Shown one piece after another: positions 39,740 through 61,787 of a DNA stretch of 64,000 nucleotides. Each line of letters begins with the position of its first letter. Position 1 is the first letter of the stretch. A model generated the notes under the pieces. The model had not been told where the DNA came from and searched no databases. It saw nothing but the letters and a program-made list of their open reading frames with translations. The DNA is taken from the NCBI RefSeq assembly GCF_964355755.1, contig NC_092679.1, positions 9,965,432 through 10,029,431 of the forward strand, in the 5' to 3' direction. This stretch comes from Antedon mediterranea. Lineage: Eukaryota > Animalia > Echinodermata. Made by a program: the position numbers and the translations under genes.

Positions 39740-41657
39740 TACATTTTCGCCATTTTTCGAAAAAAATCTTATGGTCCCCAGCAGGAAAATTTATCGAAAA
39801 ATGGCCAAATTTCGACCCTTTTACTTTTTGACATAACTAGTTACTATGGCTCTATAAGATGATGTTAACACAATATATGTCCATAAATGGCAAAATTATA
39901 GCATAATTATTTATTTTTAAAAAGTGTAACATTTTTGCCATTTTCGACCCTTTTATATTTTGACATAAGTAGTTGCTATGGCTCTATAAGATGATATCAG
40001 CACAATATATGTGCATAAATGGCAATATTATAGCATAATTTTTGAATTTTAAAAAGTGGAAATTTTAGTCATTTTTCGAAAAAATTCCTATGGTTCCCCC
40101 CAGGGAAATTTTCGCAAAAATGGCCAAATTTTAACCCTTTTATTTTTTGACATAACTAGTTACTATGGCTCTATAAGATGATGTTAGCACAATATATTTG
40201 CAAAAATGGCAATATTATAGCATAATTATTGAATTTTAAAAAGTGGGAATTTTGGCCATTTTTCGACCCTTTTATTTTTTTGACATAACTAGTTGCTATG
40301 TCTCTATACGATGATGTTAACACAATATATTTGCATAAATGCCAATATTATAGCATAATTATTGAATTTTAAAAAGTTGAAATTTTGGCCATTTTTCGAA
40401 AAAATTCCTATGGTCCCCAGCATGGAAATTTTCGAAAAATGGCCAAATTTTGTACATTTTATTTTTTGACATAACTAGTTACTATAGCTCTATAAGATGA
40501 TGTTAGCACAATATAATTATTTGCATAAATGGCAATATTATAGCATAATTTTTGAATTTTAAACAATGAAAATTTTGACCATTTTTCGAAAAAAAATCTT
40601 ACGGTTCTTCCCTGCAGGGAAATTTTCGCAAAAATGGCAAAATTTTGACCCTTTTATTTCTTGACATAACTAGTTACTATGGCTCTATAAGATGATGTTA
40701 AAACAATATATGCGCATAAATGGCAATATTATAGCCTAATTATAGAATTTTGAAAATTGGAAATTTTTGCCATTTTTCGAAAAAATTCCTATGGTCCTCC
40801 GCAGGGAAATTTTCGCAAAAATGGCCAAACATCAAACCTTTTATTAGTCGCGTGGACGCGACTCTAAAGTTCACTATGTCGGTCGGTCTGTCGGTCTGTC
40901 TGTCGGTCCGGTATCACTTTGCGTTTTATCGCTTTTCTGTACTTTTGAACTGTTTTGATGTACAGAAAAGTTTTAAAGTACATTACTTTTTGAAAGTTCA
41001 TTTATTTCTGAGAGCACGCAACTTATTGTTGTTGGCCTTGTTTTTTTACATAACGACTTACTATGGCTGTATAAGATGATGTTAACACAATATATGTGCA
41101 TAAATGGCAATATTATAGCCTAATTATAGAATTTAAAAAGGTGCACATTTTGGTCGTTTTCGAAAAAAATCGTGTGGTCCCCCGCAGGGAAATTGTCGCA
41201 AAAATTGCAATATTATAGCATAATTATTGAATTTTAAAAAGTGGGAATTTTGGCCATTTTTCGACCCTTTTATTTTTTTGACATAACTAGCTGCTATGTC
41301 TCTATACGATGATGTTAACACAATATATTTGCATAAATGCCAATATTATAGCATAATTATTGATTTTGAAAAAGTGGAAATTTTGGCGATTTTTTGAAAA
41401 AATTCCTATGGTCCCCAGCAGGGAAATTTTCGAAAAATGGCCAAATTTTGTACCTTTTATTTTTTGACATAACTAGTTACTATGGCTCTATAAGATGATG
41501 TTAGCACAATATATTTGGAAAAATGGCGATATTATAGCATAATTATTGAATTTTCGAATTTTTAAAAGTGTAAATTGTCGCCATTTTTCGAAAAAAAATC
41601 TTATGGTCCCCCTCGGGGAAATTTTCGAAAAATGGCCAAATTTAGACCCTTTTATTT
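39740..41657 (+). repeat. ~186-bp AT-rich satellite with ~133-bp deletion variants; monomer contains an inverted repeat
   Basis: Recurring gacataactagttactatggctctataagatgatgttaacacaatat and tttggccatttttcgaaaa...ttttcgaaaaatggccaaa. Spacings include 40061 to 40248 (187 bp) and 40248 to 40381 (133 bp). Confidence 0.93.
40844..41042 (+). mobile_element. Non-autonomous Helentron-type element (HINE/DINE-1-like), family 1
   Basis: Inserted into the T-run of the 186-bp monomer with no TSD. 5' palindrome AGTCGCGTggACGCGACT, then a (GTCG/GTCT)n microsatellite, 3' subTIR CACGCAACT and end ggccttgTT, matching DINE-1/HINE architecture. Confidence 0.75.
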
Positions 41658-43376
41658 TAATAGTCTATTTATATGAAATGAATGATCAATCAATGAAAAA
41701 TAATGCCATGCAACTTTGTTTCTGATTTTAAAAAAGGTCCACTTGTTTAGGCCTGACATTTACAACCCTCAAAATATCTCACTTTCAAAAACAATATTTA
41801 TTTTCAATTTAAAAATATCTCACTTTCAAAAACAATATTTATTTTCAATTAAAAAAAAGAAACAAAAATAATATTCGTAGAGATTCGAACCCACTACTGC
41901 GAGAACTCAAACCTGAGCACTACCGGTTACGCCACAAACCAGTAGATGAGTGAAGAGCTGATAATAGTCTATTTATATGAAATGAATGATCCATCAATGT
42001 AAAATGATGTTATGCAACTTTGTTTCTGATTTAAAAAAAGGTCAACTTGGTTAGGCTTGACATTTAAAACCATCAAAATATCTCACTTGCAAAAACAATA
42101 TTTATTTTCAAATAAAAAAAAAAATAAAAAAAATATTCCTAGAGGTTCGAACCCTCTACTGAGAAAACTCAAACCTGAGCATTACCGGTTACGCCACAAA
42201 CCAGTAGATTAGTGAAGAGCTGATAATAGTCTATTTATATGAAATAAATGATCCATCAATGTAAAATGATGTTATGCAACTTTGTTTCTGATTTTAAAAA
42301 AGGGCCACTTGGTTAGGCTTGACATTTACAACCATAAAAATATCTCACTTTCAAACAAAATATTTATTTTCAATTTAAAAAAAAGAAGAAAAGAAATATC
42401 CCTAGAGGTTCGAACCCACTACTGCGAGCACTCAAACTTGAGCATTACCCGTTACGCCTCAAACCAGTAGATGACTGAAGAGCTGATAATAGTCTATTTA
42501 AATGAAATGAATAATAAATCAATGAAAAATAATGCCATGCAACTTTGTTTCTGATTTTAAAAAAGGTTCACTTTTTTAGGCCTGACATTTACAACCCTCA
42601 AAATATCTCACTTTCAAAAACAATATTTATTTTCAATTTAAAAATATCTCACTTTCAAAAACAATATTTATTTTCAATTAAAAAAAAAAAGAAAACAAAT
42701 ATTCGTAGAGGTTCGAACCAACTACTGCGAGAACTCAAACCTGAGCACTATCGGTTACGCCACAAACCAGTAGATGAGTGAAGAGCTGATAATAGTCTAT
42801 TTATATGAAATGAATGATCCGTCAATGTAAAATGATGTTATGCCACTTTGTTTCTGATTTAAAAAAAGGTCCACTTGGTTAGGCTTGACATTTAAAACCA
42901 TAAAAATATCTCACTTTCAAAAACAATATTTATTTTCAAATAAAAAAAAAAGAAAACAAATATTCTTAGAGGTTCGAACCCACTACTGAGAGAACTCAAA
43001 CCTGAGAATTACCGGTAACGCCACAAACCAGTAGATGAGTGAAGAGCTGATAATAGTCCATTTATACGAAATTAATGATCAATCAATGAAAAATAATGCC
43101 ATGCAACTTTGTTTCTGATTTTAAAAAAGGTTCACTTGTTTAGGCCTGATATTTACAACCCTCAAAATATCTCACTTTCAAAAACAATATTTATTTTCAA
43201 TTTAAAAAAAAAAAAAATCCCTAGAAGTTCTCACCCACTGCTGAGAGCACTCAAACCTGAGCATTATCCGTTACGCCACAAACCAGTAGATGACTGAGGA
43301 GCTGATAATAGTCTATTTATATGAAATGAATGATCAATCAATGAAAAATAATGCCATGCAACTTTTTTTCTGATTT

Positions 43377-43723
43377 AACAAGCACGAATGTGCAATACTC
43401 GGGGTACAGCGAAAGAAGCTGCAATGACGTCATAAGACCGGATGTAACGTCACATACACATCAATAACCGCGCTACCAAATACGGCTATACGGTACCATC
43501 TTCGAGACGTGATATGGCTGCATCCGGTTTGAAATTAAAAAATCCGGCTTTATAGCTTTGAGGACATGTCCCTGTAGTATATTCATGTTAAATCCGAGCT
43601 CAATACTACAACGAATAAGGGAGGAGTAGTACTTTATAAATCGCACTTTTTTCTCAATAGTGTCCGGATGGAAGAAGAAGAGGAAAAGATGAGAGAGTCC
43701 TAGACTCAGGTACCCCGAGTAAA
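43377..43723 (-). mobile_element. Non-autonomous Helentron-type element, family 2, empty copy
   Basis: Minus strand: 5' TTTTACTCGGGGTACC(T/C)GAGT palindrome; 3' subTIR GTACCCCGAGTA plus hairpin GCAC-attc-GTGC and TTGTT end. Inserted in a T-run, no TSD. Confidence 0.78.
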
Positions 43724-43827
43724 AATAGAAATAAGTCACTGAATTGTAATATCTTTTCGTATTAAACGAGATATACTCTATATCATATTACGTATACAGT
43801 TATTTCACCATAAAGATAAAGAAAATA

Positions 43828-43898
43828 GGTTTCGCTAGGGCTCGAACCGGGACCTTCTGCGTGTTAAGCAGACTTGACAACCACTACACTACGAATCC
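43828..43898 (-). tRNA. tRNA-Val(AAC)-derived gene, type A (probably pseudogene)
   Basis: GGATTCGTAGTGTAGTGGTTGTCAAGTCTGCTTAACACGCAGAAGGTCCCGGTTCGAGCCCTAGCGAAACC. Anticodon arm TCTGC-TT-AAC-AC-GCAGA; mismatches in D and T stems. Confidence 0.8.
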
Positions 43899-44112
43899 AC
43901 TTACACTAAAAATGTTGGTTACAGAAAGTTTTTTAATCCATTTAAATTACAAATAAATATGGTAATAAGCACAAAGCAAAATAAACATGTGTAAAAGCGA
44001 TAATTACCGATTACACAAAATAAGTATTTAACAAAATAATAAAAATAACATATACTGTGTATAATTATCATATTGCGTATACAGTACTTTTCACCATAAA
44101 GTTTAAAAAAAA

Positions 44113-44184
44113 GGTTTCGCCCGGGCTCGAACCAGGTACCTTCTGCGTGTTGAGCAAACGTGATAACCACTACGCCAAAAAGCC
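44113..44184 (-). tRNA. tRNA-Val(AAC)-derived gene, type B (probably pseudogene)
   Basis: GGCTTTTTGGCGTAGTGGTTATCACGTTTGCTCAACACGCAGAAGGTACCTGGTTCGAGCCCGGGCGAAACC followed by T8; acceptor-stem mismatches. Confidence 0.8.
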
Positions 44185-44337
44185 GCATGTACCTACATAA
44201 CGCTGTGATGTGTGTCAAACATTGTGGCTTCTTAATCAAACAAATTAATTAACAAACAAGCACGAATGTGCAATACTCGGGGTACAGCGAAAGAAGCTGT
44301 ATACAGACGTATACAGTTAGAAAGTTAAAGAAAAATA

Positions 44338-44408
44338 GGTTTCGCTAGGGCTCGAACCGGGACCTTCTACGTGTTAAGCAGACTTGACAACCACCACACT
44401 ACGAAACC
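44338..44408 (-). tRNA. tRNA-Val(AAC)-derived, type A, inside HINE
   Basis: Near-identical to 43828-43898; anticodon AAC, one substitution in the anticodon stem. Confidence 0.75.
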
Positions 44409-44620
44409 TCTTACATTAAAAATGTGGGTTACAGAAAGTTTTTTAATCCTTTTAAATTACAAATAAATGGTAATAAGCACAAAGCAAAATAAACATGTGT
44501 AAAAGTGATAATTACCGATTGCACAAAATAAGTTATAAAAAAAATAATAAAAATAAGATATACTGTGTATAATTATCATATTGCGTATACAGTACTTTTC
44601 ACCATAAAGTTTAAAAAAAA

Positions 44621-44692
44621 GGTTTCGTCCGGGCTCGAAACAGGTACATTCTGCGTGTTAAGCAAATGTGATAACCACTACGCCAAGAATCC
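44621..44692 (-). tRNA. tRNA-Val(AAC)-derived, type B, inside HINE (degenerate)
   Basis: Homologous to 44113-44184; B box altered (GTTTCGAG). Confidence 0.7.
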
Positions 44693-44958
44693 GCATATAA
44701 CCATATAACTACATAACGCTGTGGTGTGTGTCACACATTGTGGCTTCTTAATTAAACAAATTAATTAACAAAAAATTAAATATCCGGCTCTATAGCTTTG
44801 AGGACATGTCCCTGTAGTATGTTCATGCCAAATCCCAGCTCAATACTACAACGAATAAGGGAGGAGTAGTACTTTAAAAATCGCACTTTTTACTCAATAG
44901 TGTCCAGTTGGAGGAAGAGGAGAAATGAGTAAGTCCTAGACTCGGGTACCCCGAGTAA

Positions 44959-45286
44959 AAAGCACGAATGTGCGATACTCGGGGTACAGCAAATGAAGCT
45001 GTAATGACGTCATAAGACAAGATGTGACGTCACATACACCTACCAAATACGGCTATATGGTACCAATTTCGAGACGTCATATGGCTGCATCCGGTCTGAA
45101 ATTAAAAAATCCGGCTCTATAGATTTTAGGACATGTCCCTGTAGTATATTCATGCCAAATCCCAGCTCAATACTACAACTCATAAGGGAGGAGTAGTACT
45201 TTAAAAATCGCACTTTTTACTCAATAGTGTCCAGATGGAAGAAGAGGAGAAAATGAGTAAGTCCTAGACTCGGGTACCCCGAGTAA
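44959..45286 (-). mobile_element. Helentron-type family 2 element, empty copy, head-to-tail with the loaded copy
   Basis: Direct junction ccccgagtaaaa|agcacgaatgtgc at ~44960; interior has the TGACGTCA segment as in 43377-43723. Confidence 0.78.
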
Positions 45287-45630
45287 AAAAAGATTCACTT
45301 GTTTAGGTCTGACAGTTGCAACCCTCAAAATATCTCACTTTCAAAAGCAATATTTATTTTCAATTAAAAAAAAAAAGAAAAAAAATACCCGTATAGGTTC
45401 GAACCCACTACTGAGAGCACTCAAACCTGAGCATTATCCGTTACGCCACAAACCAGTAGATGACTGAGGAGCTGATAATAGTCTATTTATATGAAATGAA
45501 TGATCAATCAATGAAAAATAATGCCATGCAACTTTGTTTCTGATTTTAACAAGCACGAATGTGCAATACTCGGGGTACAGCGAAAGAAGCTGTATACAGA
45601 CGTATACAGTTAGAAAGTTAAAGAAAAATA

Positions 45631-45701
45631 GGTTTCGCCAGGGCTCAAACCGGGACCTTCTGCGTGTTAAGCAGACTTGACAACCACTACACTACGAAAC
45701 C
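45631..45701 (-). tRNA. tRNA-Val(AAC)-derived, type A
   Basis: Acceptor stem GGTTTCG/CGAAACC intact, anticodon AAC, T-loop C>T change (GGTTTGAG). Confidence 0.75.
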
Positions 45702-45911
45702 TCTTACATTAAAATTGTGGGTTACAGAAAGTTTTTTAATCCATTTAAATTACAAATAAATGGTAATAAGCACAAAGCAAAATAAACATGTGTAAAAGTG
45801 ATAATTACCGATTACACAAAATAAGTATTTTAAAAAATAATAATAAGATATACTGTGTATAATTATCATATTGCGTATACAGTACTTTTCACCATAAAGT
45901 TTAAAAAAAAA

Positions 45912-45983
45912 GGTTTAGCCCGGGCTCGAACCAGGTACCTTCTGCGTATTGAGCAAACGTGATAACCACTACGCCAAGAAGCC
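45912..45983 (-). tRNA. tRNA-Val-derived, type B, anticodon changed to AAT
   Basis: Anticodon arm TTTGC-TC-AAT-AC-GCAGA; otherwise homologous to 44113-44184. Confidence 0.7.
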
Positions 45984-46145
45984 GCATATAACTACATAAC
46001 GCTGTGGTGTGTGTCACACATTGTGGCTTCTTAATTAAACAAATTATTTAACAAAAAAGCACGAATGTGCAATACTCGGGGTACAGCGAAAGAAGCTGTA
46101 TACAGACGTATACAGTTATTTCACCATAAAGTAAAAGAAACCCGA

Positions 46146-46216
46146 GGTTTCGCCAGGGCTCGAACCGGGACCTTCTGCGTGTTAAGCAGACTTGACAACC
46201 ACTACACTACGAAAAC
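46146..46216 (-). tRNA. tRNA-Val(AAC)-derived, type A
   Basis: ...TCGTAGTGTAGTGGTTGTCAAGTCTGCTTAACACGCAGAAGGTCCCGGTTCGAGCCCTGGCGAAACC. Confidence 0.78.
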
Positions 46217-46431
46217 CACTTACACTAAAAATGTGGGTTACAGAAAGTTTTTTAATCCATTTAAATTACAAATAAATATGGTAATAAGCACAAAGAAAAA
46301 TAAACATGTGTAAAAGTGATAATTACCGATTACACAAAATAAGTATTTAAAAAAATAATAAAAATAAGATATACTGTGTATAATTATCATATTGCGTATA
46401 GAGTACTTTTCACCATAACGTTTAAAAAAAA

Positions 46432-46503
46432 GGTTTCGTCCGGGCTCGAACCAGGTACCTTCTGCGTGTTAAGCAAACGTGATAACCACTACGCCAAGAA
46501 TCC
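46432..46503 (-). tRNA. tRNA-Val(AAC)-derived, type B
   Basis: GGATTCTTGGCGTAGTGGTTATCACGTTTGCTTAACACGCAGAAGGTACCTGGTTCGAGCCCGGACGAAACC followed by T8. Confidence 0.78.
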
Positions 46504-48176
46504 GCATATAACCATATAACTACATAACGCTGTTGTGTGTGTCACACATTGTGGATTCTTAATTAAACAAATTAATTAACAAAAAATTAAAAATCCGGCT
46601 CTATAGCTTTGAGGACATGTCCCTCTGTAGTATGTTCATGCCAAATCCCAGCTCAATACTACAACGAATAAGGGAGGAGTAGTACTTTAAAAATCGCACT
46701 TTTTACTCAATAGTGTCCAGATGGAGGAAGAAGAGGAAAAAATGAGTAAGTCCTAGACTCGGGTACCCCGAGTAAAAAAGGTTCACTTGTTTAGGCCTGA
46801 CAGTTGCAACCCTCAAAAAATCTCACTTTCAAAAACAATATTTATTTTCAATTAAAAAAAAAAGAAAAAAAATACCCGTATAGGTTCGAACCCACTACTG
46901 AGATCCCTCAAACCTGAGCATTACCCGTTACGCCACAAACCAGTAGATGACTGAGGATCTGATAATAGTCTATATACATGAAATGAATGATCAATCAATG
47001 AAAAATAATGCCATACAACTTTGTTTCTGATTTTAAAAAAGGTCCACTTGTTTAGGCCTGACATTTACAACCCACAAAATATCTCACTTTCAAAAATCAT
47101 ATTTATTTTCAATTTAAAAAAAAAAGAAAAAAAATATCCCTAGAGGTTCGACCCACTACTCAGAGCACTCAAACCTGAGCATTACCCGTTACGCCACAAA
47201 CCAGTAGATGACTGAAGAGCTGATAATAGTCTATTTATATGAAATGAATGATCAATCAATGAAAAATATTGCCATGCAACTTTGTTTCTGATTTAAAAAA
47301 AGATCCATTTGTTTAGGCCTGACTCGCACAACCCTAAAAAATATCTCATTTTAAAAAAAAATATTTATTTTAAATAAGAAAAAAAAAAGCAATATCCCTA
47401 GAGGTTGGAACGCGCTACTGAGAGCACTCAAACCTGGGTATTACCCGTTACGCCACAAACCAGTAGATAACTGAAGAGCTGATAATACTCTATTGTGACC
47501 CGTTCTGGCGAAACCCGCTGTTTGTCGGCATTTCAAATTTTGCGCTACTAGCAAACAACGTAAAAATTTGTCAAATCGGCCAAATCCGGATTTTTGCATT
47601 ATTATGAAAGAAGAAGTATTAAAGAACAATTGTACAAAATATGAATCTCCAAATCCAAATAAAAAGTGTAAAAAATACCATTTTAAAACACCCACCTAAT
47701 ATTCAGCCTGTTAACCTAACGATTTTAAGTCCCACGGGTAAGAAAACTTCGAATTATTGTTCATATTCTTTGAATCGTTATTCGAAAACGCCATGACAGT
47801 TTACAGAGTGCCATACACCAAATTAAAGCCAAGACAAAGCTTAATCCAAATATGGCAGTTATAGGCAGGGCTAAGCAAATTAACCAATAGTAAACCGAGT
47901 TTTCCATGACATCATTTTAAAATCTGTCACTCAACTCGTAAACTGAAACCGTCGTTGCTAACCACGTGACAACAACATTTCGTTTTGATTGGTCAATACT
48001 CATTGTGTTCTCGATTTACTGGAAAATCCAAAATGGAGGCTTACTCGGTGGGCATGGCCATGAGGCCGTTTTCGACATCAATGTTTATGGTAACGACGCT
48101 TTGGATTTCAATTTCTGCATTAGTTTATGTTTACAACGCTATTGAATCAGTCATTAATGTTATTTGCTTAATTAAA

Positions 48177-51100
48177 ATGTCGAGTTCGAATGATTTGGGA
48201 GAAAATGGGATAGCCGCGATGTTGAATGATGCCAGAGCCTGTGGAATGTATGTAGAAAACTTGGATGATGTTTTGACCGATTACTTTGCATTGCCCTCAG
48301 GGTATGATTCGGATAACGGTAAGTACTGTGATTAAAATAAGCATTAAAATCAAAATATACGTCAAATATACTTTTTATAGCCCATTATGCCTAGGCTAAG
48401 CTAACCTAACATTTTTATTTTTAACCCGATCGTTTCACTCAGTTAGTGAAAATAGGCCCGTCTTGGACCCGATCGTCTGTCACCCTAAGCTAGGCCTAGG
48501 TTAGGTAGGCCTAACTAAAATATTTTCGTGGGCATACCGTAGTCAACTATTACTACGGTTTATGCTAGGCCTAGGCTACCTACTACTACGTACGAATAAT
48601 AAAGCATGTTTATACTACTACTCTACTACTGTACTACTATAGGCTAGGCCTACTACTAGCTAGACCTAACCTCTAGCTACCTAGGCTAGGTTAGGCCTAC
48701 TACAGTACACTTCTACTAGGCCTATTTAATTTTTCTCAATAGCTGGCGCAGACTTTAAACTACTACAGTAAAAACAAACTAATTATTATAATTGTATATG
48801 CTTCTTTAAATAGATTCAGAAAATGTGAGTAGTGATGATGATTCTGTTGATCATGAAGATGAATCAGTTGTCACTGCAAGTAGCGATGATGATCAGATGT
48901 CGGATGTAGAAAGTGAAGAACAAATGGATATTGAGGAGGACATTCCACCCGAAATTGTTGATGATGCTGAAAATGAATTTGAAGCAGCAAATAACATTGC
49001 CCAGAATCTTGATATTGTAGTGCCACAACAGAAAGTGTGTAAATGTAACTGTATCATCTTCAATGGTCAAAAATGCAATAACCAGTTCACAGACGATGAG
49101 ATGAATGAAATAAGGTAAGTTTTTTTACATGACAGCAGAATAAATTAAAACTGAACTTGTGGGCATTAAAACATGTTATAATGATTATGAACCTCTATTA
49201 AATGCAATAATTCTTATTAAAATTACTTTTTTATTTCTTTATTTGCCACACAGAAAAAAGACTACATAAAAGTAATAATATACAAAATAAATTATTAAAA
49301 ATGGCAGGATTTTTATTTGCCAAAGTTACAGTTATTTTATTCTTATTTTCACATGTTAATTGTTTATTACATGGCTCCAACACCCACCCACCCAGATGCC
49401 CTGCTTTTCGAGAAGTTGTTATTTCAATTTCACATTGTTCGTAAACCAAGCATTGTTTTCATTGGGCTGGGATCTACAAAGCATTGTTTTCATTGGGCTG
49501 GGTTCTACAAAATTCTATTGATCATTGTAAAGTTTGTAACTTTCTTTTGAAATCACAAGATTCCATGTCTTTCCAGAAGTTATTTTAATTTCACATTGTT
49601 CCTCTGAACATTCTTTTCGTTGGGTTGGGCTCTCTCAATTTCTTTACCCTGTCTGCTTCTTCCATTGTTGTTTATGAGAAGGAAATTGATTGATTTAATT
49701 TTTATTTTTAGATACACAATTCAAGAGTTGAGTGAATTTGAAAAAGATTTAATGCTGTTGGGAATAATTTTTTCGTCCATTAACAACGGTGATATGACAG
49801 CCAGAAAAAAGAAAACACAAACACAAAGAAAGCAGAGCAGAATTAGAAGCTTTCACTATGGGCAGAAGAGAGTTTGTAGAGAGACGTTTTTCTTTCTGAT
49901 GGGAATTGGCCGTGACAAATTCAAAAACGTGAAGACATGGTATGAGACACATGGTCTTGTCTTTCGTAGAAAAAGATCAGGTAAACATAACTGACATTAT
50001 ACTAAGTTTTATTATTTGTCAATATTTTTTTTCATTTATTAATAATGTAAAAATTGTGAATAGTTTAAAGGAAAAATTGTTTTACCAACTGACAGCTCAA
50101 ATTTAAATCACATCTAAAAGCACCACGGTCGGTTATTATGATAATTATTAATCATTATTGTATTTTGATTATAGGTGGCAGAAGAGGAAAGCATCTATTG
50201 AAGATGGAAAATGTGGAGGGGGTGGTTCGATTTATCGTGAATTTTGCGGCAGCTAATTGCATATTGTTACCCGGAAGAATCCCTGGTGTAAAGTCTGCTG
50301 AGGTTAAGCTGCTACCCACATCCGTTACAAAGGCTGCTGTATGGCGTATGTTTAAAGATGCGGTTCTAAGAGAGCAGTGTGTTGCCCTGTCTACATTTCG
50401 TAAACTTTGGAAGGAACTTCTACCTTACATCATCGTAGCACAACCTGCAACAGATCTGTGCTGGATTTGCCAAAAAAACAACAGTTTGATAACAAAGCAG
50501 GTATGTTTATTTTGTTTAATTACTATTTTTTTTTAAAGATTTTTGTTTGTTTAGTTTTGTGTTGTCACATTAGCCATTAAACCATCATTATGCATGTCCA
50601 AATTGTGAAATATTCATTTGAAATGTAATGTATTCATTCATTATTATTTACAAAAAAAAAAGTCTAATACAAAAATAATTTTGGGGGACCCCTGTATTCA
50701 GCACAATTACATACTAAGTGTTTAACAATTATTTTGTTTTTGTAGGTTAATGTTCCAGAAGCACAAAAAACAGAAGCTCTGAGGATCCAGGAGACTCACT
50801 TGGAACAGGCAAGGATAGAAAGAGAGTTTTATAACCAGTGTTGTCGACAATCAAAACTTATAGCAAAGGAGATGGACATCAAACAGCTGGGTCAGAATGT
50901 TCCGAACTCAAAACCGATAACATTTCATTACAGCTTTGACTTCGCGCAACAGGTACACTATCCAGCAAATCCGCTACAACCTGGCCCAATTTATTTCAAG
51001 ACGCCAAGGAAATGCCACATCTTCGGTCTGACATCTGAAGGTTTGCCATCGCAAATTAATTATTTAATAGATGAGGGTGTGAGCTGTGGTAAAGGAGCAA

Positions 51101-51744
51101 ACGTGGTAATTAGTTATCTGCATCACTTTTTTGACCATTACGGTGTTGGTGAACAACATGCTCACCTTCATGCAGACAATTGTTCCGGCCAAAACAAAAA
51201 TAACGCATTCATACAGTACTTGGCATGGAGAGTTGAGAATGGCCTACATAAGACGATTAAGTATTCGTTTTTACCAGTTGGGCATACAAAATTTGGTCCC
51301 GATTGGTGCTTCGGACTTGTAAAGAGAACCTACAGAAGAACATTTGTCTCTTCCTTACAAGACATTGTTGACGTCGTTGACAAATCAACAACTACTTCAA
51401 TCAACCGAGCACAGCTTGTCGGAAATGAATCCGGTGATGTGTTTGTTAAAGTTTATGACTGGGTAAGTCATCTGTCCAGACATTACCGAAAGTTTCCTGG
51501 TATCAAGTCGTACCAACACTTTATGTTTGATGCTGAAACACCTGGTATTGTTTCGTACAAAGTATTATCTCACAGTGAAGAAAACACATACGATTTTTGC
51601 AGGTCAACACCACCATCTAGTCTCCCTCCAGTAATTAAGCCAGCAGGCCTCGACGATGCTCGAAAACAATATCTATTTCAGAGTATTCGGGAATTCTGTA
51701 GGGAAGACACAGTAGATATAGTATGCCCAAACCCAGATCTCTAA
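48177..51744 (+). CDS. Sola1-like DDD transposase, 5 exons, 678 aa: join(48177..48318,48814..49114,49712..49980,50175..50500,50746..51744)
   Basis: All four introns are GT-AG with pyrimidine-rich acceptors and compatible phases (1,2,1,0); total 2037 nt, no internal stops. Acidic N-terminus, CxCxC...C, DLCWIC, and catalytic-type motifs SFDF, ADNCSGQNKN, FLPVGHTKFGPDWCFG. Sola1 assignment is from recalled motifs, not a search. Confidence 0.85.
50746..51744 (+). CDS. Terminal exon of the transposase, containing the catalytic core
   Basis: ORF-track 314-aa frame extends upstream in frame to the acceptor ttttgtag|GTT at 50746. Confidence 0.9.
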   Translation, partial: VNVPEAQKTEALRIQETHLEQARIEREFYNQCCRQSKLIAKEMDIKQLGQNVPNSKPITFHYSFDFAQQVHYPANPLQPGPIYFKTPRKCHIFGLTSEGLPSQINYLIDEGVSCGKGANVVISYLHHFFDHYGVGEQHAHLHADNCSGQNKNNAFIQYLAWRVENGLHKTIKYSFLPVGHTKFGPDWCFGLVKRTYRRTFVSSLQDIVDVVDKSTTTSINRAQLVGNESGDVFVKVYDWVSHLSRHYRKFPGIKSYQHFMFDAETPGIVSYKVLSHSEENTYDFCRSTPPSSLPPVIKPAGLDDARKQYLFQSIREFCREDTVDIVCPNPDL

Positions 51745-52004
51745 ATACAACTTGTGTAGTAGTAATAGTGCAATTTAAAAAGAAAGAACATTTATTTATT
51801 ATACCATTTTCTAATTTATTTATGTGTAAAGTTTAATTTAAAAGCAATTACTGCATTTGTTTTTTCTAATCAAAGTAAATGATTGTTTATATCCATTATT
51901 CAGCTAACAATAGAATCTTTACTACTACCACTACATGTAAAGTACCAGTACATTTGAGTTCTAAATGTTGAAAAAGTGGGTTGTTTTCATTTGTTTATAA
52001 CTTG

Positions 52005-52010
52005 AATAAA
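52005..52010 (+). promoter_or_regulatory. Candidate polyadenylation signal of the transposase transcript
   Basis: AATAAA ~260 bp after the stop codon, a second one ~20 bp later, then a GT-rich tract (ggttcttgtgtggt). Confidence 0.35.
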
Positions 52011-52474
52011 AATTAATGAATTTTAATAAATTTTTCTGTACTTATTGGTTCTTGTGTGGTCTATGAGTGTGCCAAATTACAGCTGTATAGCTACATTTCT
52101 TAATATCGTTGCTAAGGAGTTAGTGTGAGCATGCTGTTTACTACTGGTGTACGCAACAGGAAGTCGATCATGAATCTTTAAAAGCTGTTTTCTCAAAACC
52201 TACTTGACTTATATGCAATCATTTAAATTCCAATAACTTGGCTAATACTTATCCAATTTTAACGAGATAAAAAATATTGTGAAGATTATTAAATGTAGAA
52301 TCTAAAAACACAAAATTTTTTTTTTTATTTTTTTTTATTTTTACGTCAAAGGTAGGGTTTTGCCAGAGTGGGTCATTTTCTATTCTAAGCCCTTTGGTGT
52401 TTTTTATGTTAACAAGTTTTTTCGAAAATCACAAAATGGTCTAAAACGTCTCCAAATGCGATTTGAAGCTATTG

Positions 52475-52936: not shown

Positions 52937-53760
52937 ATGCTATAATATTGCCATTTATGCAAATTTACTGGGCTAACATCATCTTACAGAGCCATAGTAA
53001 CTAGTTATGTCAAAAAATAAAAGGATCGAAATTTGGTCATTTTCCGAAAATTTCCCTGCGGGGGACAACGGGAATTTTCTCGAAAAACAACCAAAATGTC
53101 CACCTTTTAAAATTCAATAATTAGGCTATAATATATGCATTTATGCACATATATTGTGTTAACACCATCTTATAGAGCCATAGTAACTAGTTATGTTAAA
53201 AAATAAAAGGGTCGAAATTTTGCCATTTTCCGAAAATTTCACTGCGGGGGAACCATAGGAATTTTTTCGAAAAATGGCAAAAATTCCCAATTTTTAAAAT
53301 TCAATAATTATGCATTATGCTATAACGTTGCCATTTATACAGATATATTTTGCTAACATTAACCAAAATGTCCACCGTTTAAAATTCAATAATTAGGCTA
53401 TAATATTGCCATTTATAAACATATATTGTGTTAACATCATCTTATAAAGCCATAGTAACGAGTTATGTCAAAAAATAAAAGGGTCGAAATTTGGCCATTT
53501 TTCGAAAATTTCCCTACGGGAGATTATATGAATTTTTTCGAAAAATGGCAAAATTTTCCACTTTTAAAAATTAAATAATTATGCTATAATATTGCCATTT
53601 ATACAGATATATTTTGCTAACATCATCTTATAGAGCCATAGTAATGAATTATATCAAAAAATAAAAGGCTTGAAATTTGGCCATTTTTCGAAAATTTTCT
53701 GCGGGGGACCATAGGATTTTTTCGAAAAATTACTAAAATTTCCAATTTTTAAAATTCAAA
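52937..53760 (-). repeat. ~186-bp satellite in reverse orientation
   Basis: catcatcttatagagccatagtaactagttatgtcaaaaaataaaagggtcgaaatttggcc is the reverse complement of the 39740-41657 monomer. Confidence 0.92.
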
Positions 53761-55575
53761 GAGAGATAGATCAGTGAGAGAGAGATAGATCAGTGAGAGA
53801 GAGATAGATCAGCGAGAGACAGATAGATCAGCGAGAGAGAGATAGATCAGCGAGAGAGATAGATCAGCGAGAGAGAGATAGATCAGCGAGAGAGAGATAG
53901 AGCAGCGAGAGAAACAGATAGATCAGCGAGAGAGAGATAGATCAGCGAGAGAGAGATAGATCAGCGAGAGAGAGATAGATCAGCGAGAGAGAGATAGATC
54001 AGCGAGAGAGAGAGAGAGAGAGAGATAGATCAGCGAGAGAGAGATAGATCAGCGAGAGAGAGATAGATAAGCGAGAGAGAGAGAGATAGATCAGCGAGAG
54101 AGAGAGATAGATCAGCGTGAGAGAGATATATCAGCGAGAGAGAGATAGATCAGCGAGAGAGAGATAGATCAGCGAGAGAGAGATAGATCAGCGAGAGAGA
54201 GAGATAGATCAGCGAGAGAGACAGATAGATCAGCGAGAGAGAGATAGATCAGCGAGAGAGAGATAGATCAGCAAGAGAGAGATAGATCAGCGAGAGAGAG
54301 ATAGATCAGCGAGAGAGAGAGATAGATCAGCGAGAGAGAGATAGATCAGCGAGAGAGAGATAGATCAGCGACAGAGAGATAGATCAGCGAGAGAGAGAGA
54401 GATAGATCAGCGAGAGAGAGATATATCAGCGAGAGAGAGATAGATAGATCAGCGAGAGAGAGATAGATAAGCGAGAGAGACAGATAGATCAGCGAGAGAG
54501 AGATAGATCAGCGAGAGAGAGATAGATCAGCGAGAGAGAGATAGATCAGCGAGAGAGAGAGAGAGATAGATCAGCGAGAGAGAGATAGATCAGCGAGAGA
54601 GAGATAGATCAGCGAGAGAGAGAGATAGATCAGCGAGAGAGAGATAGATAAGCGAGAGTGAGATAGATCAGTGAGAGAGAGAGAGATAGATCAGCGAGAG
54701 ATAGATAGATCGGCGAGAGAGAGAGATAGATCAGCGAGAGAGAGAGATAGATCAGCGAGAGAGAGATAGATCAGCGAGAGAGATAGATCAGCGAGAGATA
54801 GATAGATCAGCGAGAGAGAGATAGATCAGCGAGAGAGAGATAGATCAGCGAGAGATATATAGATCAGCGAGAGAGAGATAGATAGATCAGCGAGAGAGAG
54901 ATAGATAGATCAGCGAAAGAGAGAGATAGATAGATCAGCGTGAGAGAGATAGATAGATCAGCGAGAGACAGATAGATAGATCAGCGAGAGACAGATAGAT
55001 AGATCAGCGAGAGAGAGAGAGAGAGATAGATCAGCGAGAGAGAGAGATAGATCAGCGAGAGAGAGATAGATCAGCGAGAGATAGATAGATCAGCGAGAGA
55101 GAGATAGATCAGCGAGAGAGATAGATCAGCGAGAGAGAGATAGATCAGCGAGAGAGAGTTAGATCAGCGAGAGAGAGATAGATCAGCGAGAGAGAGTTAG
55201 ATCAGCGAGAGAGAGATAGATCAGCGAGATAGAGAGATAGATAGATCAGCGAGAGAGAGATAGATAGATCAGCGAGAGAGAGATAGATAAATCAGCGAGA
55301 GAGAGATAGATCAGCGAGAGAGAGATAGATCAGCGAGAGAGAGATAGATCAGCGAGAGAGATATAGATCAGCGAGAGATAGATAGATCAGCGAGAGAGAT
55401 AGATCAGCGAGAGAGAGAGATTGATCAGCGAGAGAGAGATAGATCAGCGAGAGAGAGATAGATCAACGAGAGTTAAATAGATCAGCGAGAGAGAGAGATA
55501 GATAGATCAGCGAGAGAGAGATAGATAGATCAGCGAGAGAGAGATAGATAGATCAGCGAGAGAGAGATAGATAGA

Positions 55576-55614
<39 letters not shown>

Positions 55615-55763
55615 TCAGCGAGAGAGAGATAGATCAGCGAGAGAGAGAGATAGATCAGCGAGAGAGAGGTAGATCAGCGAGAGAGAGATAGATCAGCGAG
55701 AGAGAGATAGATCAGTGAAAGAGAGATAGATCAGCGAGAGAGAGATAGATCAGCGAGAGAGAG
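53761..55763 (+). repeat. 19-bp GA-rich satellite, 2-kb block
   Basis: Same unit as 1-39739; ends at the same gagagagag|tacatttt junction. Confidence 0.97.
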
Positions 55764-57540
55764 TACATTTTTGCCATTTTTCGAAAAAAATCTTATGGTC
55801 CCCAGCAGGAAAATTTATCGAAAAATGGCCAAATTTCGACCCTTTTACTTTTTGACATAACTAGTTACTATGGCTCTATAAGATGATGTTAACACAATAT
55901 ATGTCCATAAATGGCAAAATTATAGCATAATTGTTTATTTTTAAAAAGTGTAAAATTTTTGCCATTTTCGACCCTTTTATATTTTGACATAAGTAGTTGC
56001 TATGGCTCTATAAGATGATATCAGCACAATATATGTGCATAAATGGCAATATTATAGCATAATTTTTGAATTTTAAAAAGTGGAAATTTTAGTCATTTTT
56101 CGAAGAAATTCCTATGGTTCCCCCCAGGGAAATTTTCGCAAAAATGGCCAAATTTTAACCCTTTTATTTTTTGACATAACTAGTTACTATGGCTCTATAA
56201 GATGATGTTAGCACAATATATTTGCATAAATGCCAATATTATAGCATAATTATTGAATTTTAAAAAGTTGAAATTTTGGCCATTTTTCGAAAAAATTCCT
56301 ATGGTCCCCAGCATGGAAATTTTCGAAAAATGGCCAAATTTTGTACATTTTATTTTTTGACATAACTAGTTACTATAGCTCTATAAGATGATGTTAGCAC
56401 AATATAATTATTTGCATAAATGGCAATATTATAGCATAATTTTTGAATTTTTAACAATGAAAATTTTGACCATTTTTCGAAAAAAAATCCTATGGTTCTT
56501 CCCTGCAGGGAAATTTTCGCAAAAATGGCAAAATTTCGACCCTTTTATTTCTTGACATAACTAGTTACTATGGCTCTATAAGATGATGTTAAAACAATAT
56601 ATGCGCATAAATGGCAATATTATAGCCTAATTATAGAATTTTGAAAATTGGAAATTTTTGCCATTTTTCGAAAAAATTCCTATGGTCCTCCGCAGGGAAA
56701 TTTTCGCAAAAATGGCCAAACATCAAACCTTTTATTAGTCGCGTGGACGCGACTCTACAGTTCACTATGTCGGTCGGTCTGACTGTCGGTCCGGTATCAC
56801 TTTGCGTTTTATCGCTTTTCTGTACTTTTGAACTGTTTTGATGTACAGAAAAGTTTTAAAGTACATTACTTTTTGAAAGTTCATTTATTTCTGAGAGCAC
56901 GCAACTTATTGTTGTTGGCCTTGTTTTTTTACATAACGACTTACTATGGCTGTATAAGATGATGTTAAAACAATATATGTGCATAAATGGCAATATTATA
57001 GCCTAATTATAGAATTAAAAAAGGTGCACATTTTGGTCGTTTTCGAAAAAAATCGTGTGGTCCCCCGCAGGGAAATTGTCGCAAAAATGGCAATATTATA
57101 GCATAATTATTGAATTTTAAAAAGTGGGAATTTTGGCCATTTTTCGACCCTTTTATTTTTTTGACATAACTAGCTGCTATGTCTCTATACGATGATGTTA
57201 ACACAATATATTTGCATAAATGCCAATATTATAGCATAATTATTGAATTTGAAAAAGTGGAAATTTTGGCGATTTTTTGAAAAAATGCCTATGGTCCCCA
57301 GCAGGGAAATTTTCGAAAAATGGCCAAATTTTGTACCTTTTATTTTTTGACATAACTAGTTACTATGGCTCTATAAGATGATGTTAGCACAATATATTTG
57401 GAAAAATGGCGATATTATAGCATAATTATTGAATTTTCGAATTTTAAAAAGTGTAAATTGTCGCCATTTTTCGAAAAAAAAACTTATGGTCCCCCTCGGG
57501 GAAATTTTCGAAAAATGGCCAAATTTAGACCCTTTTATTT
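55764..57540 (+). repeat. ~186-bp satellite block, duplicate of 39740-41657
   Basis: Same monomer order and both junctions; 141 bp shorter, accounted for by one 133-bp unit plus 8 bp of HINE microsatellite. Confidence 0.93.
56735..56925 (+). mobile_element. HINE family 1, duplicate of 40844-41042
   Basis: Same termini and same insertion site; shorter GTCG/GTCT tract. Confidence 0.75.
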
Positions 57541-58068
57541 TAATAGTCTATTTATATGAAATGAATGATCAATCAATGAAAAATAATGCCATGCAACTTT
57601 GTTTCTGATTTTAAAAAAGGTCCACTTGTTTAGGCCTGACATTTACAACCCTCAAAATATCTCACTTTCAAAAACAATATTTATTTTCCATTAAAAAAAA
57701 AAGAAAAAAATATTCGTAGAGGTTCGAAGCCACTACTGCGAGAACTCAAACCTGAGCACTACCGGTCACGCCACAAACCAGTAGATAACAGAAGAGCTGA
57801 TAACAGTCTATTTGTATGAAATGAATGATCAATCAATGAAAAATAATGCCATGCAACTTTTTTTCTGATTGAAAAAAATGTCCACTTGTTTAGGCCTGAC
57901 ATTTACAACCCTCAAAATATCTCACTTTCAAAAACAATATTTATTTTCAAATAAAAAAAAAATATCCTTACAGGTTCGAACCCACTACTGGGAGCACTCA
58001 AAACTGAGCATTACCCGTTATGCCATAATGTAGTACACGACAGAACAGTTTATAATAGTCTATTTATA
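57541..58068 (-). repeat. ~260-bp tRNA-derived satellite, 2 units, the last one diverged
   Basis: ggttcgaa...ctgagca...gcca units at ~57712-57779 and ~57962-58026. Confidence 0.88.
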
Positions 58069-58130: not shown

Positions 58131-58378
58131 GGCCAGTTAGCTCAGACGACTGAGCGTCGTGTTGACAACACGTATGTCGTGGTTTCGATTCTCACGCTGG
58201 TCGGTGGAATAGAGTTAAAGGTATGCGACCAACTGTGTTTGTGGTTCACAGAATTTACGTCCTCCTTTCCACCACACATCTTGAGAAGGCACTAGAAATG
58301 CATCTGGTGATGATGTGGTGGAAACGACCCCAAGGCCGTGGCAGGGCCTTAGTGCTGAGGCAGGGAGAGCACATTTTT
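58131..58378 (+). ncRNA. tRNA-headed (Ile-like body) structured element: SINE or Pol III-type RNA
   Basis: 58131-58203 folds as a cloverleaf: GGCCAGT/GCTGGTC acceptor, GCTC/GAGC D stem, CGTG-TTGACAA-CACG, GTGGT-TTCGATT-CTCAC. Several hairpins follow, and the first T5 run is at 58374. Confidence 0.6.
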
Positions 58379-59557: not shown

Positions 59558-61787
59558 TTTCAAAAACAATATTTATTTTCAATTTAAAAAAAAAAAGAAA
59601 AAAATATTCCTAGAGGTTCGAACCCACTACTGAGAGAACTCAAACCTGAGCATTACCGGTGACGCCACAAACCAGTAGATGAGTGAAGAGCTGATAATAG
59701 TTTATTTATATGAAATGAATGATCCATCAATGTAAAATGATGTTATGCAACTTTGTTTCTGATTTAAAAAAAGGTCCACTTGGTTAGGCTTGACATTTAA
59801 AACCATAAAAATATCTCACTTTCAAAAACAATATTTATTTTCAAATAAAAAAAAAAGAAAAAAAATATCCCTAGAAGTTCGAACCCACTATTAAAATCAC
59901 TCAAACCTGAGCATTACCCGTTACGCCGCAAACCAGTATATGACTGAAGAGCTGATAAAAGTCTATTTATATGAAATGGATGATCAATCAATGAAAAATA
60001 ATGCCATGCAACTTTGTTTCTGATTTTAAAAAAGGTTCACTTGTTTAGGCCTGACAGTTGAAACCCTCAAAATATCTCACTTTCAAAAACAATATTTATT
60101 TCCAATTAAAAAAAAAAGAAAAAAATACCCGTATAGGTTCGAACCCACTACTGAGAGCACTCAAGCCTAAACATTACCCGTTACGCCCCAAACCAGTAGA
60201 TGACTGAGGAGCTGATAATAGTCTATATATATGAAATGAATGATCAATGAATGAAAAATAATGCCATGCAACTTTGTTTCTGATTTTAAAAAATGTCCAC
60301 TTGTTTAGGCCTGACATTTACAATCCTCAAAATATCTCACTTTTAAAAAACCATATTTATTTTCTATTTAAAAAAAAAAGATAGAAAAATATCCCTAGAG
60401 GTTCGACCCACTACTCAGAGAACTCAAACCTGAGCATTACCCGTTACGCCACAAACCAGTAGATGACTGAGGAGCTGATAATAGTCTATTTATATGAAAT
60501 GAATGATCAATCAATGAAAAATAATGCCAAGCAACTTTGTTTCTGATTTTAAAAAAGGTTCACTTGTTTAGGCCTGACATTCACAACCCTAAAAAATATC
60601 TCATTTTCACAAAAAATATTTATTTTCAATAAGAAAAAAAAAGCAATATCCCTAGAGGCTCGACCCACTACTCAGAGCACTCAACCCTGGGTATTACCTG
60701 TTACGCCACAAACCAGTAGATAACTGAACAGCTGATAATAGTCTATTTATATGAATTTAATGATCAATCAATGAAAAATAATGCCATGCCACTTTGTTTC
60801 TGATTTAAAAAAAAGGTTCATTTGTTTAGGCCTGACATTTACAACCCTCAAAATATCTCAATTTCAAAAAAAATATTTATTTTCAATTTAAAAAAAAAAG
60901 AAATGAAATATCCCTAGAGGTCCGAACCCACTACTGCGAGCACTCAAACTTGAGCATTACCCGTTACGCCTCAAACCATTAGATGACTGAAGAGCTGATA
61001 ATACTCTATTTATATGAAATGAATAATAAATCAATGAAAAATAATGCCATGCAACTTTGTTTCTGATTTTAAAAAAGGTTCACTTGTTTAGGCCTGACAT
61101 TTACAACCCTCAAAATATCTCACTTTCAAAAACAATATTTATTTTAAATAAAAAAAAAATAAAAAAACAAAATATCAGTAGAGGTTCGAACCCACTAGTG
61201 AGAGCACTCAAACTTGAGCATTACCCGTTACGCCACAAACCAGTAGATGACTGAAGAGCTGATAATACTCTATTTATATGAAATAAATAATAAATCAATG
61301 AAAAATAATGCCATGCAACTTTGTTTCTGATTTTAAAAAAGGTCCACTTGTTTAGGCCTGACATTTACAACCCTCAAAATATCTCACTTTCAAAAACAAT
61401 ATTTATTTTCAATTTAAAAATATCTCACTTTCAAAAACAATATTTATTTTCAGTTAAAAAAAAAGAAAGAAAAATAATATTCGTAGAGATTCGAACCCAC
61501 TACTGCGAGAACTCAAACCTGAGCACTACCGGTTACGCCACAAACCGGTAGATGAGTGAAGAGCTGATAATAGTCTATTTATATGAAATGAATGATCCAT
61601 CAATGTAAAATAATGTTATGCAACTTTGTTTCTGATTTTAAAAAAGGTCCACTTGGTTAGGCTTGACATTTAAAACCATAAAAATATCTCACTTTCAAAA
61701 ACAATATTTATTTTCAAATAAAAAAAAAAAGAAAAAAAATATTCCTAGAGGTTCGAACCCCATACTGAGATAACTCAAACCTGAGCA
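59558..61787 (-). repeat. ~260-bp tRNA-derived satellite, about 9 units, no insertions, last unit truncated
   Basis: Same monomer; variant order parallels 42960-47494; cut at ctgagca|tatctctc by the CT satellite. Confidence 0.92.

What the first reader, a model, noticed from the sequence alone, without database searches (positions are those of the whole stretch)
43377..46775. Helentron-type element apparently capturing tRNA genes: empty, unloaded-cargo and loaded states side by side
Seen: empty ~340-bp elements (43377-43723, 44959-45286). Seen: a tRNA-Val pair with its own flank and no adjoining element end on the left (43726-44254). Seen: loaded elements (44255-44958, ~46056-46775) in which ~100 bp of interior is replaced by that ~470-bp pair. 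The junctions show a short templated duplication (gaagctg-TATACAG-acgTATACAGtta) and A-rich microhomology (aattaacaaaa/aattaaaaatccggc). Known: Helitrons and Helentrons capture host fragments and form head-to-tail arrays. Inference: a rolling-circle element mobilising and amplifying Pol III genes, giving 8 tRNA-Val-like copies in 2.7 kb. I do not know a described case of tRNA cargo in a HINE, but cannot search the literature.
Basis: partly seen in the sequence, partly recalled or inferred. Interest (0 to 1): 0.78.

Follow-up and report, generated by a model that had tools for sequence, protein, structure and literature searches.

The report
Rolling-circle transposon spreading tRNA pseudogenes
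A small non-coding jumping element in an animal genome carries two decayed valine tRNA genes between its own ends, and this loaded form is abundant in two samples and sits at another site too, likely because the element once read past its end and then multiplied; whether the passengers are transcribed is untested.

Summary
The anatomy is real. A 350-bp minus-strand HINE (non-autonomous Helentron/HLE2: 12-bp subTIRs, 5' inverted repeat, 3' hairpin, T-run target) sits twice at one T-run of a 261-bp satellite; 16 of 18 such sites are empty. Eight tRNA-Val-like copies (four A/B pairs, 'V') lie between HINE ends; all have 2-5 stem mismatches, so they are likely pseudogenes. One correction: the 'unloaded' pair is not a native gene. 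It lies between two HINE ends, abuts them directly in 4 of 4 runs, and ends in a HINE-like hairpin. Likely path: 3' read-through capture, deletion of the inner terminator, gain of a true 3' end, amplification (roughly hundreds of copies), local duplication. A rival is that V is a second HINE family. My searches found only one putative precedent (Arabidopsis tRNA-Cys). The scan had not noted this family before. New variant of a known kind; interest 0.5.

The parts
41658..43376 (.). 261-bp satellite array (left part) into which the element block is inserted; each unit holds a tRNA-like A box/B box stretch on the minus strand
43377..43725 (-). E1, empty HINE: 3' cap at left (hairpin, subTIR at 43396), 5' end at right (subTIR 43710-43721 with nested inverted repeat, T-run)
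43723..43763 (.). 41-bp filler that belongs to another repeat; skipped in the common joined form
   Evidence: joint 43722-43764 and loose ends at 43722/43762
43764..44254 (-). V1, full-length tRNA-Val pseudogene pair (A1 43827-43898, B1 44112-44184); its left end resembles a HINE 3' cap (shared CTGTA motif, 6-bp hairpin, TYGTT)
44255..44958 (-). L1, loaded HINE: cap 44255-44299, 7-bp templated insertion 44300-44306, V2 44307-44772 (A2 44337-44408, B2 44620-44692), HINE 5' half 44773-44958
44957..45286 (-). E2, empty HINE (87% identical to E1), head to tail with L1
45287..45545 (.). single satellite unit between the two blocks; chimeric (5' half like unit 46775, 3' half like unit 43124)
45548..46053 (-). 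cap + junction + V3 (A3 45630-45701, B3 45911-45983), running straight into the next cap
46054..46775 (-). L3, loaded HINE: cap 46054-46098, V4 46106-46583 (A4 46145-46216, B4 46431-46503), HINE 5' half 46584-46775
46775..47494 (.). 261-bp satellite array (right part), resuming at the A-run of the target site

Best explanation
This is a non-autonomous Helentron-type element (HINE) that carries a pair of decayed tRNA-Val genes, likely captured by reading past its own 3' end and then likely amplified by rolling-circle transposition. Shown: the termini, the T-run target with empty sites, dispersed ends, the pair following the HINE 3' cap and abutting the next HINE 5' end, and an abundant loaded junction with at least one copy outside the window. 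Inferred steps, in the element's own (minus) direction: (1) end bypass copied the downstream 490-bp pair V up to a cap-like hairpin, giving an E-V unit and E-V-E arrays; (2) deletions anchored at the inner cap and using AAA overlaps removed that terminator, giving E5'-V; (3) one templated-insertion join replaced V's last ~26 bp with a true HINE cap, giving a 700-bp element with both subTIRs, which multiplied; (4) one such array inserted in the satellite and was duplicated locally by unequal crossing-over. An autonomous partner is assumed, not seen.
For: Termini and target: (16 of 18 sites empty). V follows the cap, and the cap runs on into normal interior: X1 record 1 (depth 2,295) and the X17 contig, X9 record 31; V-to-cap join also in X6 (record 19, depth 1,957). 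V abuts a HINE 5' end in 4 of 4 runs (depth 5,146/184/313/18). V's right end joins HINE at the cap, at 43415 and at 44936 and at 44773 (window); two of these three inner joins fit deletion by an AAA overlap. V's left end matches a cap-like motif found at only 4 places in 39740-62000 (3 caps and V1) and in 3 of 1000 shuffles. Junction-only bin 44302-44306: summed depth 336,105 (X1) and 2,499 (X5), 0.29 and 0.21 of the cap peak. X1 record 5 is 945 bp, depth 281.6, with cap + junction behind 863 bp that do not lie on the stretch. Cap flanks are unrelated (34 contigs in X1, agreement 0.43-0.44). The chimeric satellite unit supports local duplication. End bypass and composite transposition are proposed for HINEs in PMC4067079 (section 15 read) and reported as confirmed for Helitrons in PMC5148889 (passage).
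Against: No donor tRNA locus and no autonomous Helentron could be looked for (no genome). Only one loaded copy outside the window is seen as a contig, its flank is not printed, and it has 19-26 letters beyond the junction, under the tool's 31-letter bridging rule; no listed piece meets that rule (25 of 773 pieces shown). Summed contig depth is not a copy number. The right junction was not measured separately, so some deep left junctions may belong to cap-V-cap tandem units such as 45548-46098 rather than whole loaded elements. The cap-like motif was designed after seeing the sequences. V's fixed right end joining HINE at several places also fits V being an element of its own. The four V copies are mosaics, so the local history is not a simple duplication. 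X1 may be the window's own sample.
Confidence: 0.6

Rival explanations
1. V is the remnant of a second, older HINE-like family with tRNA-derived interior. It nests at T-runs inside and beside the first family, and the loaded form is a chimera that swapped 3' ends between the two. No host gene was captured by this element.
For: V's left end has the architecture of a HINE 3' cap. V is high-copy in organisms A and B. Its right end is fixed while the HINE side varies (44960, 43415, 44773, 44936; and window), and it folds into an 8-bp hairpin behind a T-run. Earlier notes describe self-nesting HINEs in this genome (unchecked).
Against: V's right end has no inverted match to the motif at its left end, and no such partner occurs in the window. 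Every V right-end joint that was listed leads into HINE sequence (15 of 41 joints shown). A and B are diverged paralogues with shared 3' but unrelated 5' flanks, as in a gene cluster.
Confidence: 0.25
2. Filler-DNA capture: a break inside an empty HINE was repaired in one event from a tRNA-pair template, replacing about 100 bp of interior; that element then amplified.
For: Templated 7-bp insertion and AAA overlap at the two junctions. Filler capture is argued for insect Hel1 Helitrons (PMC6544945, passages). A 41-bp filler from another repeat shows such repair acts here.
Against: The right junction uses the same V boundary as the V-to-cap join, and each junction also occurs without the other (cap-V-cap at 45548-46098; V-to-inner-HINE joins), which points to separate steps from an E-V template.
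Confidence: 0.1
3. The loaded form is mostly a product of local or tandem recombination and satellite-like amplification in a few arrays, with little transposition.
For: The cluster lies in satellite-rich DNA; the two blocks look locally duplicated and the V copies are mosaics. Depth cannot tell tandem from dispersed copies.
Against: A 945-bp unbranched contig holds the loaded junction behind a flank that is not V, while repeat-derived X1 pieces were at most 160 bp. HINE caps have many unrelated flanks in three runs.
Confidence: 0.05

Closest known systems
HINE / DINE-1 non-autonomous Helentrons (Thomas et al. 2014, PMC4067079; passages and section 15 read); HLE2 of HELIANO (PMC11417382; passages)
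   Same: 12-bp subTIRs, inverted repeat nested in the 5' subTIR, 3' stem-loop, T-rich/TT target, no coding capacity, head-to-tail clusters; capture by end bypass or composite transposition is predicted there.
   Different: The cargo is a tRNA pseudogene pair ('tRNA' occurs 0 times in either main text). The 3' subTIR lies about 19 bp from the end, not 38-60 as in mite HINEs. No central tandem repeat. Autonomous partner not found.
Arabidopsis chromosome 5 tRNA-Cys cluster overlapping annotated Helitrons (Szymanski et al. 2023, PMC10701932; abstract and passages read)
   Same: [quoted passage not shown]
   Different: There three structure-based tools did not confirm a Helitron, the case is one locus, and most genes are expressed. 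Here the termini are clear, the element is HLE2-type and the loaded form is abundant, but the tRNAs are degenerate.
[quoted passage not shown]
   Same: Captured host DNA between termini, stepwise growth, multiple termini.
   Different: The passages read concern protein-coding fragments; PMC12001565 says it excluded non-coding genes.
Dada DNA transposons (PMC8869645; passages)
   Same: A DNA transposon tied to tRNA genes, including tRNA-Val.
   Different: Dada inserts inside tRNA genes with 6-7-bp duplications and encodes a transposase; here whole tRNA-like genes ride inside the element.
pearl / DTC84 Helitron-like elements of bivalves (PMC3879986; passages)
   Same: Subterminal inverted repeats, AA/TT target, non-autonomous.
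   Different: Complete Pol III A and B boxes were not found in those elements; here two near-complete tRNA-Val genes are present.

Membership tests
HINE / non-autonomous HLE2 | subterminal inverted repeats of 11 bp or more | tested here: met
   12-bp motif at 5 caps and, inverted, at 4 5' ends
HINE / non-autonomous HLE2 | short inverted repeat or palindrome at the 5' subTIR | tested here: met
   6-7-bp stem, -6.9 kcal/mol
HINE / non-autonomous HLE2 | stem-loop between 3' subTIR and 3' end | tested here: met
   4-bp stem with 4-nt loop, 5 bp from the end; weak
HINE / non-autonomous HLE2 | insertion in TT / T-rich target, shown by empty sites | tested here: met
   2 filled and 16 empty of 18 satellite sites; 107 X1 contigs show the empty form
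HINE / non-autonomous HLE2 | no target-site duplication | tested here: inconclusive
   the site is a homopolymer; 8-9 A in the filled sites against 6-7 in empty ones could be element T-tails or a short duplication
HINE / non-autonomous HLE2 | no coding capacity | tested here: met
   longest ATG frame 37 aa (E1) and 40 aa (L1)
HINE / non-autonomous HLE2 | interspersed copies with sharp boundaries | tested here: met
   unrelated flanks at the cap in X1 (34 contigs), X5 (10), X6 (11), agreement 0.43-0.57
HINE / non-autonomous HLE2 | autonomous Rep/Helicase partner with the same subTIRs | not testable with these tools
   no genome held; terminal motif absent from metagenome contigs
Canonical Helitron (HLE1) | 5' TC, 3' CTRR, insertion between A and T | tested here: not met
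   ends are T-run + subTIR and hairpin + TTGTT
tRNA-derived SINE | single tRNA head at the 5' end, 3' tail, target-site duplication | tested here: not met
   two whole tRNA-like genes lie internally, 60-70 bp from V's ends, between HINE termini
Functional tRNA-Val gene | intact cloverleaf | tested here: not met
   2-5 stem mismatches in 8 of 8 copies against 0 (50 of 60) or 1 (10 of 60) in natural genes with the same body; Rfam 22.7-44.8 bits
Functional tRNA-Val gene | internal Pol III A and B boxes and T-run terminator | tested here: met
   A-box-like stretch in 8 of 8, B-box pattern in 6 of 8, four or more T within 12 nt in 8 of 8; motif consensus recalled
Functional tRNA-Val gene | transcribed, processed and charged | not testable with these tools
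   needs small-RNA or tRNA sequencing
Dada | insertion inside a tRNA gene with 6-7-bp duplication | tested here: not met
   no tRNA copy is interrupted

The most novel reading that the evidence does not exclude
A rolling-circle element has turned a captured tRNA-Val pair into a mobile Pol III cassette and scattered hundreds of live A-box/B-box promoters through the genome: SINE-like Pol III units spread without reverse transcription, some transcribed or bound by TFIIIC, with every step of the capture (read-through, terminator loss, new end) still present as a living subfamily.
Probability: 0.2. Interest if true: 0.75.

Novelty: new variant of a known kind. Interest (0 to 1): 0.5.

Why it matters
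Rolling-circle capture is documented mainly for protein-coding fragments. A 2023 paper (PMC10701932) still called non-coding RNA capture by a Helitron unproven. This family would be a clear animal case, with a readable series of intermediates that shows how 3'-transduced DNA becomes internal cargo. It offers a DNA-only route to the large tRNA-pseudogene counts of some invertebrate genomes and warns that such 'tRNA genes' inflate annotations. If the A and B boxes are active it would spread Pol III promoters, as Helitrons carry heat-shock elements in C. elegans (PMC6765114, passages). If they are dead, it is a tidy but modest piece of transposon natural history.

Tried and rejected
No whole genome is held, so no genome-wide count was possible.

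The loaded junction was not seen in X6 (organism B; bins 44302-44316 empty, while 14 contigs run from the cap into normal interior) or in the single X17 contig, nor in X9. Contigs show presence, not absence, so I draw no lineage claim from this.

No RNA holder was listed; this says nothing on expression. X5 is only guessed to be RNA and its profile follows the DNA runs, so I treated it as DNA-like. X9 and X17 are small-share runs and may hold traces of another organism's DNA.

The terminal motif found 0 matches in metagenome contigs. The 61 tRNA loci share no flank with V or the HINE.

I first took U at position 73 as a mark of dead tRNA-Val. Rejected: 24 of 60 natural genes with this body also have it. 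I also considered an anticodon switch from UAC, since 45 of 61 natural matches read TAC; but 12 of 61 read AAC, so it is not shown.

Rejected: 'unloaded native gene' (bounded by HINE ends, absent from empty sites); SINE; Dada; canonical Helitron (see membership rows); assembly artefact (all three junction types tested recur in public contigs).

Earlier-finding look-ups by sequence, words and place found nothing on this family.

Paper searches found no demonstrated tRNA cargo in a HINE or Helitron; most hits were seen only as listings. Repbase, Dfam and subscription journals were not searchable, and no supplements were read; consensus libraries there may already hold such an element.
Full report
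Setting. The window is eukaryotic, repeat-rich DNA: about 40 kb of a 19-bp GA-rich satellite, then arrays of 132/187-bp and 261-bp repeats. Earlier notes on this genome call the animal a feather star; I did not test that. No whole genome was held, so genome-wide questions were put to public contigs laid on the stretch.

1. Observation. It holds. A 12-bp motif occurs at 43396, 44274, 44976, 45567 and 46073, and inverted at 43710, 44946, 45274 and 46763. On the plus strand the order is: satellite, E1 (empty), 41-bp filler, tRNA pair V1, cap, V2, HINE 5' half, E2 (empty), one satellite unit, cap, V3, cap, V4, HINE 5' half, satellite. In loaded copies 99-111 bp of interior is missing and about 473 bp stands in its place. 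The 7-bp insertion at the left junction is the same in 3 of 3 copies.

2. The element. Read on the minus strand it starts with a T-run and a subTIR holding a nested 6-7-bp stem, and ends with the inverted subTIR, a 4-bp hairpin and TTGTT. It codes for nothing longer than 40 aa. Both blocks sit at the same A-run (T-run on the element's strand) of the 261-bp satellite; 16 of 18 such sites in the window are empty. These are the features given for HINE/DINE-1 (PMC4067079, passages) and HLE2 (PMC11417382, passages). The ends are dispersed: contigs leave the cap into unrelated flanks in X1 (21+13 contigs, agreement 0.44 and 0.43), X5 (5+5) and X6 (5+6). The autonomous partner could not be sought.

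3. The cargo. ARAGORN finds 6 of 8 copies by default and 8 of 8 relaxed, two marked as pseudogenes. Rfam finds 7 of 8 at 22.7-44.8 bits, 4 above the gathering score of 29. A degenerate pattern fetched 61 natural genes with the same body. The window's copies match the best of them at 60-67 of 73 positions and have 2-5 stem mismatches each, against 0 in 50 of 60 and 1 in 10 of 60 natural genes (the pattern fixed part of the D and anticodon arms, and many loci come from one assembly). All A copies break the D stem and lack one base; all B copies break the acceptor stem; B3 reads AAT. They are likely pseudogenes. The B-box pattern survives in 6 of 8 and a T-run follows all 8. Related copies with the missing base present exist in the runs (18% of depth at 43848 in X1, 79% in X6) and may include the true genes.

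4. V is not a native neighbour. It is absent from every empty satellite site. It is deep in public contigs: summed depth over V bins is 70,000-590,000 in X1 against 240,000-960,000 over HINE bins, and 3,700-67,000 against 112,000-429,000 in X6. Its left end joins a HINE 5' end directly, without the 41-bp filler, in 4 of 4 runs (depth 5,146, 184, 313, 18); the filler continues on both sides as another repeat. Its right end runs into a HINE cap and on into normal interior in X1 and X17 and X9, and into a cap in X6. It also joins HINE at 43415 and 44936 in X1 (15 of 41 joints shown). V's left end looks like a HINE 3' end: shared CTGTA motif at the same distance, a 6-bp hairpin, then TYGTT. A motif written to that shape hits only three caps and V1 in 22 kb on both strands, and 3 of 1000 shuffles of V (designed after the fact).

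5. Is the loaded form a family? I laid contigs on 150 bp around the left junction so that one 5-bp bin (44302-44306) is covered only by the loaded form. Summed depth there is 336,105 in X1 and 2,499 in X5, two samples from two studies of organism A, or 0.29 and 0.21 of the cap peak. In X5 one 61-bp contig across the junction has depth 1,555 with no difference, while long flank-bearing contigs have 4.3-6.7; the ratio, 230-370, is a rough inference of copy number, not a measurement. X1 record 5 is 945 bp long, depth 281.6, and ends in cap + junction after 863 bp that do not lie on the stretch. In the window the junction follows only V or satellite, and repeat-derived X1 pieces were at most 160 bp, so this is another locus. 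Limits: it has 19-26 letters beyond the junction, below the 31-letter rule; its flank is not printed; X1 may be the window's own sample; the right junction was not measured alone.

6. Local history. The satellite unit between the blocks is closest to the unit right of block B in its first half (96.7%) and to the unit left of block A in its second (98.6%, one private shared base) among 13 others. That is the mark of an unequal crossover duplicating one insertion, with thin support in the second half. The four V copies are 93-96% alike and mosaic: left parts group V1+V4 against V2+V3, right parts V1+V3 against V2+V4, with one site against both. Right-part alleles follow the junction type, as expected of subfamilies that recombine.

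7. Mechanism. Best reading (0.6): end bypass captured the downstream pair up to a cap-like hairpin; deletions anchored at the inner cap, two of three with an AAA overlap, removed the terminator; a templated-insertion join put a true cap on V; this 700-bp element multiplied; one array landed in the satellite and was duplicated. The junctions and their abundance are shown; the order and the rolling-circle route are inferred from PMC4067079 (section 15) and PMC5148889 (passages). Rivals: V is a second HINE-like family that nests and swaps ends (0.25; for it the cap-like left end and fixed right end, against it no partner subTIR); one-step filler capture (0.1); mostly tandem amplification (0.05).

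8. Novelty. Capture by rolling-circle elements is known. Ten searches gave one near case, the Arabidopsis tRNA-Cys cluster, where Helitron tools did not confirm the element and the authors write that it would be the first non-coding RNA so captured (PMC10701932, abstract and passages). Dada targets tRNA genes rather than carrying them. Repeat libraries, subscription journals and supplements were not seen. I file the element as a HINE and the finding as a new variant of a known kind. The cargo is probably dead as tRNA, which caps the score at 0.5; live Pol III promoters spread by a DNA-only route would deserve 0.75 (probability 0.2).

Noticed in passing
window 41658-47494, 57541-58068, 59558-61788: The 261-bp satellite itself holds a tRNA-like stretch on the minus strand with A-box and B-box-like motifs; relaxed ARAGORN calls pseudo-tRNAs in three units. 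Its summed depth in X1 is 5.6 million, about seven times the HINE: a very large tRNA-like satellite.
   Followed up: partly
window 47495-52376: A 4.9-kb DNA transposon with imperfect ~22-bp terminal inverted repeats and a multi-exon gene; the last exon (50746-51744, 332 aa) matches Pfam DUF7869, E 2.7e-19. It interrupts the 261-bp satellite.
   Followed up: partly
window 58131-58203: A further degenerate tRNA-like sequence on the plus strand, not called by ARAGORN at default.
   Followed up: no
window 39740-42240 and 55764-58068: A 2.3-kb block (end of GA satellite, 132/187-bp repeats, start of 261-bp satellite) is duplicated at about 89% over the longest alignment.
   Followed up: no
window 1-39739, 53760-55763, 61789-64000: 19-bp GA-rich satellite, about 2,020 copies in the first array; the last array is on the opposite strand.
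   Followed up: no
window 43723-43763: The 41-bp filler is an internal piece of another high-copy repeat present in all four runs (loose ends at 43722 and 43762).
   Followed up: partly
L003-L006 and other loci of the same marine assembly: Tandem tRNA-Val genes about 1 kb apart, and 24 of 60 natural genes with U rather than A at position 73; A73 is recalled as a usual valine identity base.
   Followed up: no
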